This document shows, piece after piece, positions 25,419 through 28,696 of a DNA stretch of 41,997 nucleotides. Position numbers and translations under genes: made by a program. The notes beneath the pieces were generated by a model. It did not search any database and was not told the origin of the DNA. It saw only the letters and a program-made list of their open reading frames with translations. The stretch's first letter is position 1; each line of letters opens with the position of its first letter. Where the stretch lies: the IMG/VR virus record IMGVR_UViG_2698536372_000019, positions 1 to 41,997 of that record; one strand, written 5' to 3'. The stretch is from a virus. Lineage: Duplodnaviria; Heunggongvirae; Uroviricota; Caudoviricetes.

Positions 25419-28400
25419 ATACCTAAAACGTCATGAGCTACACCTCGAGTGTCCCCCTTACAAGACACAGAACGTCTGGCAAAAAGAGGTTCCACTCTGA
25501 AGCCACTGTCATGATAAAGCTCTCTGATATTTGGCGAGCCACTGTTAGTAATGAGAACCTTTGCACCTCGACGATGAGCATCCGTCAACAGAGACACCAG
25601 GCGTTTTTGCTCTTCAAACTTAAAGTCATGACCGGAATAGTTCGTGAATCCCTCTGTATTTGGAAGCGGTTCATACGGCGGATCGCAAAAGATGACATCT
25701 CCTTCTCCGGCAGCTTCAATCACCGCTGCAAAATCACCGCATACAAACTCAGACCGCCCTTCCGCACCGAGGAAGGCTTCCATCTCCTGTAATGGGAAAT
25801 ACGGAGTTTTATACTTCCCATAACCGACATTGAACTCACCGGCCTGGTTGTAACGCGTCAATCCGTTAAAACAATGTCGGTTCAGGAACAAAAACGCCGC
25901 TGCGCGATGTAAATCATCATAGACTTGTTTGTTAAACGCATTCCGTACTGCCAGGTATCCTTCCTGTGTGTTATAGTCCTGGAAGAAACGATGTGCCAGA
26001 GTGATAAGTGAATGCGCCTCGCGTTGCAGAGTCTTGTAAAAGTTAATCAGGTCAGCATTCACATCATTTAGCAGATTTTCCTGGTATCCGGCATTCATGA
26101 AGACAGCTCCGCCACCAACGAAAGGTTCAATCAGGCGCTTCCCTTCTGGCAAATAGCGAAAGATTTGTTCCAGAACACCAAATTTTCCACCAGCCCATTT
26201 GAATATGGACCGTTCGAATTCTGCCGCTGGTTTAACTTTTCGCTCTTTTGTTTCACTTCCTTCTTTCTGCCGACATACGGCCTTAGTAATCCGATCGCCA
26301 ATCCAGCGCATTACTGGTATTGCCATACTATTGCCGATCGCTTTGTAACGCGGTCCGTCAGCTGCAAGCATCGCGGCCTCTTCTTCGCTTAAATCTGGAT
26401 AGTGATTGCGAAGATATGCCAGTTCATCTGAATTAACTTTTTTACGCTTTTCCGTCGGGATCAACGTATGCCCATCAGGAAAACCTTGCAGCCTTTCACA
26501 TTCGACAGGGGTAAGACGGCGGACAGCTACTTCTGCGTTTCTTACTTCATAGCAAACAGCTGTTGGATTTTTAGCCATTAGAGATGGTGAAGTATTCTTA
26601 GTTGCAGCATGTTGTGTACCGCTCATACGCTCAGGAAAAGCCAATGTAACAAGATGCTCATGGCTTTCTTGCTCACGTGCCCGCAATGTACCATGCCCTT
26701 CTGACCAAAAACCTGCTCCTGTGCTGCTAAAAACGGCAAGGTCAGTGGCATCTTTAAAATCTCTTGCCTTTACTGTCGATGCGGTTTCATCGTCAATATA
26801 TTCCCCAAATGCTGCCATCCTGAAAGCGTTTACGGCTTTCGTCGATTTCATACCGGGTGGCATGTCAGCGTGTAGGCATGGATTTAGGCTTTCGCCACTG
26901 ATTGCAGCGCCATTTGCAATAATGGCGGAAGCGATTTCCTTCTTTTTTCGGCTCGGCGCAATATTCCGACGCACGCCTTCGAACTCAAAAAGTACCGTTG
27001 CGGGATCGAGGTCTGTTCGAGCACTTGCGACAACAAACACGCGTCGGCGTCGTTGTGCCACTCCGAAGTATTGGGCATCAAGGATTCTCCAGGCCACCTT
27101 TCGCTGCGGTCCATAAATACAACCACACTGCGGCCACTTTGGAGCATGGCAACCGGTTTTGCCATCCCACCGCCAGAACGCGTTACTTTTTCCTGATTCA
27201 GGTCGATCACCTGGTTCAAATGGCGCATCTTCTCCAGCCAATCCGGCAAGGAAACATCCGAAGGCGTTATCTGCCGATGACAGGACTCCTGGGACATTTT
27301 CCCAGACGATAACTGTCGGTTTGAGGAAGGACTCAGACCGTTTGTCGTCAATTGCATTTGCAAGCTCCACATACTTTAAAGTTAGCGCGCCACGCTCATC
27401 ATCAAGCCCACCACGTAATCCCGCGATACTGAATGCCTGACAGTTATGGACCACCGCACCATTGAGGATATAGGAATGATCACCTTCGACTTCTATGTTG
27501 TATACAGTATCTAGGCCTACCGATTTAAACTCTTTGACTGTTCGTAAAAGCATTCCATGAGCCAATCTTGATTTACGTGACAATTTCTGCGGGCAGATTG
27601 TTACCTGATAATAATTCCGTTGATTTACCACGCGATCCTCGATCACTTTTTTGGGCTCAACTTCAATAAAGCTGACCGAAGAAACATAACCACAAGTCTG
27701 TGACAACCCCGCAACGCCCCAAGCAAGCGCAGAACTAACACTATTAATTCTAAATCCCGCTTTACCACTTGGTGTCCCATCAGTATCAAGATAGCCTTGT
27801 AAAAACACATGACGCAATGGATGCGACATCACCCATGCAGGGATACGCTTAGCATGGCTTAACTCGCCAAAATGTTCATTAAGCCAATTGGCATAACACG
27901 TATCATTCAAGGTTACTTTGATGCTCCCTCGGATTTCGCTTGCCACGGAAAATATGTTTTCTGGTATGCGGCAATGAAACTTTCTCAATTTCTGGCAATT
28001 TATGCCAAAAACAACCGCCTTCTTAGATTTACCTCTCCATCTCCTAATATATCCATCGCCAACATAAGCGCCCGCAAGATACATAGCCTGTTCTTCAGAC
28101 AAGAACCGAGAACAAATATCTGGAAATGCAATATTGAAATTAGTTAGAGCGCACCATTGATATCCCGGCATATCACATGCTGCTCGCCATTCCGGTTCAG
28201 ACAACAACTCTCTCTTAAAATATGTGCCATTTTTCCGGGTGTTTTGGGCTTTCCACCGAACAGCCAGGAAGGGATGGTCATTGGTTGTTCTTATACCTAA
28301 AGGCTGCCCAACGGCATTAAGTAACCCCGTATTAGCTATTTTTGAACCAACTCTTTTTACTTGTTGTAACCGCCCGAGATGACTGACTACGTAATCACCA

Positions 28401-28696
28401 GGGCAAACATTTTCTATTGGTTTATAGCCATTTTTACAAAGAACCATATGCCCCGCGGTAAAACATGGTGTTCCCCCGACGAGCACGTCAGGGGATTCGA
28501 TTTCCCCAGCCAAGACTTTTTTGGCAAGTTTTTTCATGTCGCCAAGGTTGGCAACATGGGGCCAGCGGAGCGCAAGAACGGCCGATGGAAAAGGCTCGAT
28601 TTCAGCAAACCACGCCGGACGCATACCCAACGGTTCCCAGGCAATACTCGCGGCTTCAATTCCACTGCAAACAGATCCATAGCACAGCTCTTTCAC
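25409..28696 (-). CDS. dmt: bifunctional DNA methyltransferase (N-terminal C5-cytosine, C-terminal Dam-like N6-adenine) interrupted by an intein; 1095 aa precursor
   Basis: C5 motifs: [26 protein letters not shown] (split by the intein), [28 protein letters not shown]; Dam motifs [22 protein letters not shown]. Confidence 0.8.
27443..28465 (-). mobile_element. intein (341 aa) with LAGLIDADG homing-endonuclease domain
   Basis: Cys at the N-terminus (CFTAGHMVL), block [17 protein letters not shown] motifs [12 protein letters not shown] and [12 protein letters not shown]-terminal VVHN followed by Cys +1. Confidence 0.8.

What the first reader, a model, noticed from the sequence alone, without database searches (positions are those of the whole stretch)
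27443..28465. LAGLIDADG intein inserted at the catalytic cysteine of a phage-plasmid DNA methyltransferase
The 1095-aa minus-strand ORF reads ...DVLVGGTP | CFTAGHMVL ... (341 aa) ... [11 protein letters not shown] | [12 protein letters not shown].... Deleting residues 78-418 restores a textbook C5-methyltransferase motif [14 protein letters not shown]. The insert has the N-terminal Cys, a TTNDHPF block B, a terminal HN and two LAGLIDADG-type motifs ([23 protein letters not shown]). The +1 nucleophile for splicing is the methyltransferase catalytic Cys, so cytosine methylation should be impossible until the intein excises. The spliced product would be about 754 aa, matching the size I recall for P1 Dmt. 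I do not know of an intein described in P1-family Dmt, but this needs a database check.
Basis: partly seen in the sequence, partly recalled or inferred. Interest (0 to 1): 0.85.

Follow-up and report, generated by a model that had tools for sequence, protein, structure and literature searches.

The report
Homing intein splitting P1-type Dmt methyltransferase
The dmt DNA-methyltransferase gene of this P1-like phage-plasmid is interrupted, exactly at its cytosine-methylation catalytic cysteine, by a self-splicing protein element (an intein) carrying a homing endonuclease; this is a real but ordinary kind of selfish element that public annotation and, as far as I could search, the literature have overlooked in P1-family phages.

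Summary
Window 27443-28465 (minus strand) encodes residues 78-418 of a 1095-aa Dmt. Reference P1 Dmt (754 aa) lacks precisely these 341 residues, reading ..GTP|CQAFSIAG.

The insert is a canonical class-1, LAGLIDADG-bearing intein. It has Cys1, block B TTNDH, two LAGLIDADG motifs with their acidic residues, terminal His-Asn and Cys+1. It hits intein_Cterm and LAGLIDADG_3 above their cut-offs. Its AlphaFold model (pLDDT 90.9) matches PI-SceI, TliVMA and PI-PfuI.

Relatives at 26-55% identity occupy the same P|C point of motif IV in many other viral C5-methyltransferases.

Within P1-like elements the intein is patchy. It is in about 127-129 of 503 dmt-bearing plasmids and 152 of 5426 complete E. 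coli genomes. It is nearly invariant (at most 1.4% divergence) across dmt alleles that differ by up to about 10%, and it is linked to a flank marker (CCA versus CCT). This points to recent horizontal spread.

A laboratory P1vir stock (OP279344) also carries it. Splicing, endonuclease activity and C5 methylation remain untested.

This is a new member of a known kind. Inteins in phage methylases, including C-5 ones, are already reported. Interest is moderate.

The parts
25409..28696 (-). dmt precursor ORF (1095 aa, GTG start overlapping the hrdC stop): N-extein, intein and C-extein
   Evidence: The exact protein is in NCBI as WP_140252047.1/CTY03995.1, named only 'Dam family site-specific DNA-(adenine-N6)-methyltransferase'.
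28466..28696 (-). N-extein (77 aa): C5-methyltransferase motif I region ([10 protein letters not shown]) through the first half of motif IV (..VGGTP)
   Evidence: Pfam DNA_methylase.
27443..28465 (-). Intein (341 aa, 38.3 kDa, 42.7% GC against 48.3% for the window)
   Evidence: Clean gap against P1 Dmt. Pfam and NCBIfam hits. AF2 pLDDT 90.9 and Foldseek match to PI-SceI at 4e-18.
28439..28465 (-). Intein block A (CFTAGHMVL), with the Cys1 nucleophile
   Evidence: Cys1 is invariant in 43/43 family members.
28274..28288 (-). Intein block B (TTNDH: Thr61 and His64)
   Evidence: His is 43/43 and Thr/Ser 43/43 in the family.
28052..28078 (-). First LAGLIDADG motif (LAGAYVGDG; catalytic Asp137)
   Evidence: Asp is 40/43 and Gly 43/43. 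Pfam LAGLIDADG_3.
27776..27802 (-). Second LAGLIDADG motif (LQGYLDTDG; catalytic Asp229)
   Evidence: Asp is 43/43.
27443..27505 (-). Intein blocks F and G ([21 protein letters not shown]): Asn323 at F:4, His330, His340 and terminal Asn341
   Evidence: TIGR01443; alignment to the Spl DnaX mini-intein C-terminus.
27440..27442 (-). Cys+1 codon (TGT). This is the first C-extein residue and the catalytic Cys of C5-methyltransferase motif IV (PCQ).
25409..27442 (-). C-extein (677 aa plus stop): the rest of the C5-methyltransferase (motifs [32 protein letters not shown], and the variable target-recognition region, type A), followed by the Dam domain
25499..26197 (-). Dam-type N6-adenine methyltransferase domain (precursor aa 834-1066, with DPPY)
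   Evidence: Pfam MethyltransfD12 1.9e-56; TIGR00571 3.1e-74.
29918..29963 (-). C1 operator Odmt (29947-29963, identical to P1) and promoter Pdmt (29918-29947, 1 mismatch). These drive uhr-hrdC-dmt, so the intein precursor should be made only when C1 repression is lifted.
   Evidence: P1 annotation mapped onto the window.
28693..29598 (-). hrdC/rdgC, the gene immediately upstream in the same operon
   Evidence: Pfam RdgC 2.1e-97; collinear with P1.

Best explanation
Window 27443-28465 encodes a class-1 intein with a nested LAGLIDADG homing endonuclease. It is inserted in frame between Pro77 and the catalytic Cys of motif IV (GGTP|CQAFS) in the C5-cytosine-methyltransferase half of the bifunctional P1-type Dmt (C5-MTase plus Dam).

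Inferred mechanism:
1. The uhr-hrdC-dmt operon is transcribed from the C1-repressed promoter Pdmt during lytic growth.
2. A 121.8-kDa precursor is translated.
3. Cys1 makes the N-S acyl shift. Cys+1, which is the methyltransferase's own catalytic Cys, attacks the thioester. Asn341 cyclises.
4. The exteins are ligated into the 83.4-kDa, 754-aa Dmt with an intact PCQ motif, and a 38.3-kDa intein/endonuclease is released.
5. The free intein cuts intein-less dmt alleles of co-resident P1-like genomes at the GGxACxCCT|TGTCAGGC site. Recombinational repair then copies the intein in (homing).

Shown here: the anatomy, conservation of the catalytic residues, the fold, the shared insertion site across a large intein family, and a population pattern of recent horizontal spread.

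Inferred, not shown: splicing, endonuclease activity and target, and that C5 methylation depends on splicing. The C-terminal Dam domain may well work before splicing.
For: - Clean 341-aa presence/absence against P1 Dmt and other intein-less alleles at P|C.
- Sequence signatures: LAGLIDADG_3 (3.2e-8), Hint_2, Intein_splicing and TIGR01443 intein_Cterm above its cut-off. The C-terminal blocks align to the Spl DnaX mini-intein and PI-PkoII.
- AF2 model with pLDDT 90.9 and pTM 0.88. The top PDB matches are all endonuclease-bearing inteins: PI-SceI 4e-18, TliVMA 1e-16, PI-PfuI 1e-11 and PI-PkoII 2.5e-9.
- In 43 family members at 26-100% identity, Cys1, His(B), Asp229 and Asn341 are invariant, His340 is 41/43 and Asp137 is 40/43.
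- All 9 complete protein relatives and all 52 IMG/VR relatives examined sit at the same P/D|C point of motif IV. One of them is a 141-aa mini-intein without an endonuclease. Three of the four divergent spliced hosts scanned hit PF00145; the fourth, a 192-aa fragment, hit nothing.
- In-silico splicing improves the DNA_methylase match from 103.8 to 124.3 bits.
- Patchy distribution: 129 plasmids hold the intein out of 503 with dmt; 152 of 5426 E. coli genomes hold it.
- The intein occurs with both target-recognition-region types (3288-nt and 3042-nt genes), and both types also exist without it (2265 and 2019 nt).
- Inteins differ by at most 14/1023 nt, while their host Dam regions differ by up to 92/900 nt.
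- Flank marker: 24/24 intein-bearing IMG/VR alleles plus all 7 intein-bearing alleles compared directly (the window and six fetched records) have CCA at Pro77. Of the empty IMG/VR alleles, 77/78 have CCT.
- No truncated or decayed copies were found: all 153 E. coli matches are full length.
- A plaque-forming laboratory P1vir stock carries it (OP279344; PMC10250240).
Against: - There are no experimental data on splicing or cleavage.
- Block F:4 is Asn323, not the Asp typical of class-1 inteins. It is Asn in 39/43 relatives, so it is probably a family trait, but its effect on splicing is unknown.
- Hint_2 and Intein_splicing fall just below or below Pfam's gathering scores.
- The low intein divergence and the 2x2 allele pattern could also come from ordinary homologous recombination between P1-like plasmids, without endonuclease-driven homing.
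- The synonymous-to-nonsynonymous ratio within the intein is about 1:1 on very few changes, which is only weak evidence of purifying selection within the P1 clade.
- C5-methyltransferase activity of P1 Dmt itself is annotated only as 'perhaps'.
- P1vir growth on dam+ hosts does not require Dmt, so that stock does not prove function.
Confidence: 0.7

Rival explanations
1. The intein still splices, but its endonuclease no longer homes. Its patchy distribution would then reflect a single old insertion shuffled among P1-like plasmids by ordinary homologous recombination and plasmid and phage spread.
For: - P1-like dmt genes are clearly mosaic. The window and pO26_10153_1 have identical intein and N-extein but differ at 80/600 nt in the target-recognition region.
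- The CCA flank marker is shared by all intein-bearing alleles, consistent with one origin.
- Within the clade, nonsynonymous changes are about as frequent as synonymous ones.
Against: - Both LAGLIDADG catalytic Asp residues and the whole endonuclease domain are intact in every copy examined, with no truncated copy among 153 E. coli matches.
- Intein divergence (at most 1.4%) is several-fold lower than that of the flanking host gene (up to about 10%), as expected for an element moving faster than its host gene.
Confidence: 0.2
2. The insert is a splicing-dead intein remnant. The C5-methyltransferase half is permanently broken in intein-bearing alleles, and only the C-terminal Dam domain matters to the phage.
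For: - Block F:4 is Asn, not Asp.
- P1's need for Dmt is documented only for GATC methylation at pac (PMC12707154).
- The C5 activity of P1 Dmt is annotated as 'perhaps'.
- Reference P1 itself carries a Gly-to-Trp change inside motif IV, which suggests the C5 half can be dispensable.
Against: - All splicing nucleophiles and assisting residues (C1, T61, H64, H340, N341, C+1) are intact here. They are conserved down to 26% identity in relatives living in unrelated C5-methyltransferases that have no Dam domain, where a dead intein would kill the only activity.
- The C5 motifs I, IV, VI, VIII and X of the exteins are all intact.
- Asn at F:4 is the family norm (39/43).
Confidence: 0.07
3. The segment is an integral accessory domain of a longer Dmt variant, or an in-frame free-standing endonuclease insertion that stays in the mature protein. 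On this reading it is not an intein.
For: Annotation pipelines treat the 1095-aa product as a single 'Dam family' methyltransferase.
Against: - The insert splits the invariant PC dipeptide of motif IV.
- It carries the N- and C-terminal Hint blocks around the endonuclease.
- It folds like PI-SceI as a whole, not only like a LAGLIDADG enzyme.
- A relative exists as a mini-intein without an endonuclease at the same site (P0019).
Confidence: 0.02

Closest known systems
PI-SceI (Sce VMA1 intein) and the archaeal VMA/Pol inteins with nested LAGLIDADG endonucleases (TliVMA, PI-PfuI, PI-PkoII)
   Same: The architecture is the same: a Hint splicing domain interrupted by a two-motif LAGLIDADG endonuclease, with Cys1, terminal His-Asn and Cys+1, inserted at a conserved active-site motif of the host enzyme. 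These are the best structural matches.
   Different: Only 11-17% sequence identity. The host protein (a C5 DNA methyltransferase) and the host organism (an enterobacterial phage-plasmid) differ. The element is smaller (341 aa against 454 aa for PI-SceI), and block F:4 is Asn.
Inteins of actinobacteriophage DNA methylases (Kelley et al. 2016, PMC5050341: DNMT-1/2 in N6_N4 methylases; Gosselin et al. 2023, PMC9957025; actinophage survey bioRxiv 10.1101/2025.01.02.630785, which lists C-5 methylase IPR001525 among intein hosts)
   Same: These are inteins, mostly with LAGLIDADG endonucleases, invading orphan phage DNA methyltransferases. They show patchy distribution and evidence of horizontal transfer between divergent methylases.
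   Different: The hosts are different phages (Actinobacteria against Enterobacteriaceae). Most published cases are in N6/N4 enzymes. I could not establish from the text whether the actinophage C-5 inteins use the same P|C site or belong to the same intein family.
The wider family of motif-IV (P|C) inteins found here in viral C5-methyltransferases (IMG/VR loci L037-L090; proteins P0007-P0019, including Mannheimia haemolytica 'Hint domain-containing protein')
   Same: They share the insertion point, the block sequences (CF[TAV][AP]G......VYN[IL].V..D.SY.....VHN|C) and the endonuclease type, at 26-55% identity.
   Different: The P1-clade intein sits in a bifunctional C5+Dam fusion protein under C1 repressor control. 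The relatives are in stand-alone C5 methyltransferases of other phages, giant-virus MAGs and bacterial chromosomes.
Reference P1 Dmt (NC_005856 gp069, 754 aa)
   Same: The exteins are about 98.4-98.8% identical at DNA level over the surrounding locus (BLASTN of the P1 locus against the window). The operon, operator Odmt and promoter Pdmt are the same.
   Different: It has no intein. It has CCT rather than CCA at Pro77, and Trp instead of Gly at residue 74 within motif IV.

Membership tests
Intein (class 1, Hint-fold protein-splicing element) | In-frame insertion in a conserved host protein, absent from close orthologues, whose removal restores the host motif | tested here: met
   Exact 341-aa gap against P1 Dmt and four other intein-less alleles. 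GGTP|CQAFS is restored, and the DNA_methylase score rises from 103.8 to 124.3 bits.
Intein (class 1, Hint-fold protein-splicing element) | N-terminal nucleophile (Cys/Ser1, block A) and block B TxxH | tested here: met
   Cys1, and Thr61-x-x-His64 in TTNDH. Conserved 43/43 (Cys, His) in the family.
Intein (class 1, Hint-fold protein-splicing element) | C-terminal His-Asn followed by a Cys/Ser/Thr +1 nucleophile (block G) | tested here: met
   ..VVHN|C. TIGR01443 scores 28.9 bits against a 15.6 cut-off. Asn is 43/43 and His 41/43.
Intein (class 1, Hint-fold protein-splicing element) | Block F with Asp at F:4 and His at F:13 (typical of class 1) | tested here: inconclusive
   F:13 His330 is present. 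F:4 is Asn323, not Asp; Asn is the family norm (39/43, with Asp in 3). The consequence for splicing is unknown.
Intein (class 1, Hint-fold protein-splicing element) | Hint fold | tested here: met
   AF2 model with pLDDT 90.9. Foldseek matches full-length inteins PI-SceI, TliVMA and PI-PfuI at 1e-11 to 4e-18. Pfam Hint_2 scores 28.1 bits, 0.3 below its cut-off.
Intein (class 1, Hint-fold protein-splicing element) | Autocatalytic protein splicing that yields ligated exteins and free intein | not testable with these tools
   This needs expression with western blot or mass spectrometry. Predicted products are 83.4 and 38.3 kDa from a 121.8-kDa precursor.
LAGLIDADG (DOD) homing endonuclease, intein-borne (PI- type) | Two LAGLIDADG motifs, each ending in a catalytic acidic residue followed by Gly, in an alpha-beta-beta-alpha-beta-beta-alpha pseudo-dimer | tested here: met
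   LAGAYVGD137G and LQGYLDTD229G. Pfam LAGLIDADG_3 3.2e-8. Secondary structure and matches to I-DmoI and I-SceI.
LAGLIDADG (DOD) homing endonuclease, intein-borne (PI- type) | Site-specific cleavage of the intein-less allele, and homing | not testable with these tools
   Only indirect evidence exists: patchy distribution, intein much less diverged than host gene, and the flank marker CCA against CCT.
C5 cytosine DNA methyltransferase (PF00145), the host domain | Motifs I, IV (PC), VI (ENV), VIII (QRR) and X (GN..) in order | tested here: met
   In the spliced sequence: [10 protein letters not shown] at 8, GGTPCQAFS at 74, ENVPG at 125, QRRRRVF at 207 and GNSMAIPV at 447. Pfam 9.5e-36.
C5 cytosine DNA methyltransferase (PF00145), the host domain | Demonstrated m5C methylation activity and specificity | not testable with these tools
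   The P1 annotation says only 'perhaps at C5 cytosine'. No paper found describes it.
Dam-family N6-adenine methyltransferase (D12 class), the C-terminal domain | D12-class domain with DPPY | tested here: met
   PF02086 1.9e-56 and TIGR00571 250 bits against a 114.85 cut-off. DPPY at spliced residue 664.

The most novel reading that the evidence does not exclude
The intein may be more than a passenger and act as a functional switch or weapon for P1-type phage-plasmids. The precursor is made only after C1 derepression. Both splice-junction nucleophiles are cysteines, in a Cys-rich intein (11 Cys). Splicing could therefore be conditional, for example redox- or temperature-gated, delaying or gating m5C methylation relative to Dam methylation during lytic growth. 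Separately or in addition, the released endonuclease could cut the dmt gene of competing intein-less P1-like plasmids or phages (about three quarters of the population) during superinfection. That would give a competitive or exclusion advantage beyond simple homing. The near-absolute CCA/CCT flank dimorphism could then reflect cleavage-resistant empty alleles.
Probability: 0.1. Interest if true: 0.7.

Novelty: new member of a known kind. Interest (0 to 1): 0.42.

Why it matters
P1 is the classic transducing phage of E. coli and the prototype phage-plasmid. Showing that about a quarter of its natural relatives, and at least one laboratory P1vir stock, carry an unannotated homing intein has four consequences.

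1. Annotation. Thousands of database entries name this protein only a 'Dam family' methyltransferase of 1095 or 1013 aa.
2. Experimental access. It gives a native, genetically tractable E. coli system for studying intein splicing and homing in vivo, using P1 crosses and C1-controlled expression.
3. P1 biology. It bears on Dmt's still-uncharacterised C5 activity and on methylome interpretation in strains carrying these plasmids.
4. A wider intein family. It reveals a broad family specialised for the P|C catalytic site of viral C5-methyltransferases.

It does not change how inteins are understood.

Tried and rejected
- Literature searches for intein with phage-plasmid, Dmt, bacteriophage P1, P1-like and RCS47 returned no description of this intein. 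One search failed because a search term was too short. The hits were irrelevant (toxin-intein tools, a Thermus phage RNR intein, a Pectobacterium phage).
- phmmer of the insert against PDB sequences gave only weak hits (Spl DnaX mini-intein 0.0015, PI-PkoII 0.024). A fold comparison was needed for a firm answer.
- I considered whether the insert is a conserved integral domain. This is rejected, because most alleles lack it.
- I considered whether it is a free-standing endonuclease ORF or a group I intron. This is rejected. It is in frame with no stops, has Hint blocks at both ends, and a mini-intein relative sits at the same site.
- I considered a sequencing or assembly artefact. This is rejected, because the insert is present at 95% identity or more in 129 plasmids, 152 E. 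coli genomes and 25 IMG/VR contigs.
- I did not attempt a formal dN/dS or phylogenetic incongruence test. Only 7 intein-bearing alleles were fetched, and changes are too few (at most 14 nt).
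Full report
**Observation**

The minus-strand ORF 25409..28696 (GTG start, 1095 aa) exists as described. Residues 78-418 correspond exactly to window 27443..28465. They read CFTAGHMVL…[11 protein letters not shown], flanked by …DVLVGGTP and [12 protein letters not shown]…. Deleting them leaves a 754-aa protein with GGTPCQAFS at residues 74-82.

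The window is a P1-like phage-plasmid. The locus is collinear with P1 uhr-hrdC-dmt-Oban-tRNAs at about 98.4-98.8% identity. BLASTN against the P1 locus breaks precisely at 28463/27442, with a 3-nt TGT ambiguity because both the intein and the C-extein begin with a Cys codon. Reference P1 Dmt is 754 aa and aligns with a single clean 341-aa gap at TP|CQ.

**What the insert is**

Sequence models:
- Pfam LAGLIDADG_3 scores 3.2e-8, above its cut-off.
- Hint_2 scores 3e-6 (28.1 bits against a 28.4 cut-off).
- Intein_splicing scores 2e-4, below its cut-off.
- NCBIfam TIGR01443 'intein C-terminal splicing region' scores 28.9 bits against a 15.6 cut-off.
- There are weaker matches to the intein parts of intein-containing GyrA, RNR, RFC, DnaB and RtcB models.

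The canonical residues are all in place:
- Cys1
- block B Thr61 and His64 (TTNDH)
- two LAGLIDADG motifs ending in Asp137-Gly and Asp229-Gly
- block [23 protein letters not shown], with His330, His340 and Asn341
- Cys+1

An AlphaFold2 model built on 12 homologues is confident (pLDDT 90.9, pTM 0.88). It shows beta-rich N- and C-terminal parts around a helical/beta core. Its best PDB matches are all endonuclease-bearing inteins: PI-SceI 4e-18, TliVMA 1e-16, PI-PfuI 1e-11 and PI-PkoII 2.5e-9. Free-standing LAGLIDADG enzymes (I-DmoI, I-SceI) come next.

The one departure from the class-1 textbook is Asn323 at block F position 4, where Asp is usual.

**The host site**

The exteins carry C5-methyltransferase motifs I, IV, VI, VIII and X in order, followed by a Dam (D12-class) domain with DPPY. 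The intein splits the invariant Pro-Cys of motif IV, so its +1 nucleophile is the methyltransferase's catalytic cysteine.

In-silico splicing raises the Pfam DNA_methylase score from 103.8 bits (three fragments) to 124.3 bits. The spliced sequence gives one contiguous N-terminal match (protein 8-135 to profile 5-119) across the junction.

It is an inference from C5-MTase enzymology that the C5 domain cannot be active before splicing. The Dam domain, about 415 residues downstream, may not depend on splicing.

**Relatives elsewhere**

A search of the 5.8-billion-protein collection with the insert found homologues at 29-54% identity. All of them are embedded in PF00145 proteins. In all nine complete examples the element sits between the P and the C of motif IV. 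One of these is a 141-aa mini-intein that lacks the endonuclease.

A scan of IMG/VR found 245 relatives. In all 52 non-P1 loci examined the element again lies at …(P/D)|C(Q/T/K)… of a motif-IV-like sequence. These include giant-virus MAG contigs and a distinct 'SPD|CKHFSKAKG' methyltransferase subfamily. Three of the four divergent spliced hosts scanned hit PF00145; the fourth, a 192-aa fragment (L090), hit nothing.

Across 43 members the key residues are strongly conserved:
- invariant: Cys1, His(B), Asp229 and Asn341
- His340 in 41/43
- Asp137 in 40/43
- Asn at F:4 in 39/43 (Asp in 3)

The unusual Asn is thus a conserved family trait rather than decay. Conservation of the splicing residues in stand-alone C5 enzymes argues that the family splices.

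**Population pattern in P1-like elements**

In PLSDB, 503 plasmids carry a dmt homologue. 129 of them match the intein, and 126-127 hold it at near full length. It is present, always full length and at 95% identity or more, in 152 of 5426 complete E. coli genomes, mostly on plasmids. It also occurs in phages RCS47 and vB_EcoM-Ro157c2YLVW.

Four allele classes exist: intein present or absent, combined with two alternative target-recognition regions. Gene lengths are 3288, 3042, 2265 and 2019 nt.

Among seven intein-bearing alleles the inteins differ by at most 14/1023 nt. Their Dam-coding parts differ by up to 92/900 nt and their N-exteins by up to 22/231 nt. The intein is therefore much younger than the divergence of its host genes.

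A synonymous flank marker tracks the intein almost perfectly. All 7 intein-bearing alleles compared directly (the window and six fetched records), plus 24/24 IMG/VR intein-bearing alleles, read CCA at Pro77. All 5 fetched empty alleles and 77/78 IMG/VR empty alleles read CCT.

The insert is also AT-richer (42.7% GC) than its surroundings (48.3%).

Together these findings indicate a single acquisition followed by recent lateral spread among dmt alleles, as expected for homing with co-conversion. Ordinary recombination among these mosaic plasmids cannot be excluded as the vehicle.

**Expression context**

The C1 operator Odmt (29947-29963, identical to P1) and promoter Pdmt (29918-29947, one mismatch) lie upstream. 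Oban follows the gene. The precursor, and hence the endonuclease, should be produced only on derepression or infection, which is when several P1-type genomes can meet.

A laboratory P1vir stock sequenced for an Argonaute study (OP279344; PMC10250240) carries the intein together with the type-B recognition region. An intein-bearing dmt is therefore compatible with a plaque-forming phage. Dmt is dispensable on dam+ hosts, however, so this is weak functional evidence.

**Comparison with what is known**

Inteins at catalytic residues of phage DNA-metabolism proteins are the rule rather than the exception.
- Inteins in mycobacteriophage N6/N4 DNA methylases were catalogued in 2016 (PMC5050341).
- An actinophage methylase intein with horizontal transfer was analysed in 2023 (PMC9957025).
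- A 2025 survey lists C-5 methylases (IPR001525) among intein hosts (bioRxiv 10.1101/2025.01.02.630785).

I found no paper describing an intein in P1-family Dmt. Public annotation calls the protein only 'Dam family site-specific DNA-(adenine-N6)-methyltransferase', 'dmt' or 'DNA methyltransferase'. Fragments and relatives are auto-named 'Hint domain-containing protein' or 'DOD-type homing endonuclease domain-containing protein', so domain databases do see it.

**Verdict**

The feature is real. It is a new, apparently unpublished member of a known kind, a LAGLIDADG intein in a phage DNA methyltransferase, and it belongs to a broad family dedicated to the P|C catalytic site of C5-methyltransferases.

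Confidence that it is an intein by descent and architecture is about 0.97. Confidence in the whole best explanation, an intein that both splices and still homes, is 0.7. Interest is moderate (0.42). It is useful for annotation and as a tractable E. coli system, but not surprising to an intein specialist.

The most novel reading not excluded is conditional splicing that gates m5C methylation, or use of the endonuclease in competition between P1-like elements. I give that about 0.1.

Noticed in passing
L001 (NC_005856) 1720-1722, equivalent to window ~28475-28477: Reference P1 Dmt has Trp instead of Gly at residue 74 (GGG to TGG), reading VWGTPCQ inside C5-methyltransferase motif IV. None of the 11 other alleles compared has this change. 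It could explain why m5C activity of laboratory P1 Dmt was never established, or it could alter the intein endonuclease target.
   Followed up: partly
window 26200-27000 (C5 target-recognition region of dmt); compare L002, L006, L007, L009, L010: P1-like dmt genes come with two alternative, highly divergent variable regions between motifs VIII and IX. Type A gives 754 or 1095 aa, and type B (as in P7 and OP279344) gives 672 or 1013 aa. This implies two different cytosine-methylation specificities that recombine independently of the intein.
   Followed up: partly
L002 (OP279344.1) 1501-4542: A laboratory P1vir stock used in Argonaute studies (PMC10250240) carries the intein and the type-B recognition region. 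It therefore differs from the reference P1 sequence at dmt, so laboratory 'P1' stocks are not uniform at this locus.
   Followed up: partly
window 1-2810: There is a tandem duplication with a period of ~1566 nt (272-571 and 1838-2137 are 97% identical). It duplicates an Ash-family ORF (678-1241 and 2244-2807, identical Pfam scores), with a KilAC/ANT antirepressor ORF (1225-2247) lying between the two Ash copies. Each copy has a C1-operator-like site (1218-1234 and 2784-2800, 3 mismatches).
   Followed up: partly
window 24489-24735 and 22468-22543: There are four tRNA genes: Asn, Tyr and Thr in a cluster, plus Met (CAU). The P1 stretch fetched (L001), and likewise RCS47 and OP279344, has only Asn and Thr here. 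The window therefore carries an extra tRNA-Tyr, and the Thr region is only about 84% identical to P1.
   Followed up: no
P0010 / L048 (Mannheimia haemolytica; seen on 578 contigs): A 48%-identical intein sits at the same P|C site, but the C-extein reads CQSDKGGTVKASGGGFEWRE and then stops. The host methyltransferase appears truncated or frameshifted directly after the splice junction while the intein ORF stays intact. This may be a domesticated or stranded intein.
   Followed up: no
L061-L063, L067-L069, L076, L078-L080, L083-L088 (IMG/VR): A distinct methyltransferase subfamily with motif IV written SPD|C(K/T)HFSKAKG hosts related inteins at the same catalytic Cys; the spliced host scanned (L062) hits PF00145. 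Several relatives lie on giant-virus MAG contigs (GVMAG), so this intein family spans very different virus groups.
   Followed up: partly
window 19762-19778, 12324-12340, 25402-25418: Further near-perfect C1 operator sequences (ATTGCTCTAATAAATTT) occur on the minus strand. The one at 25391-25418 is the bivalent Oban operator, identical to P1.
   Followed up: no
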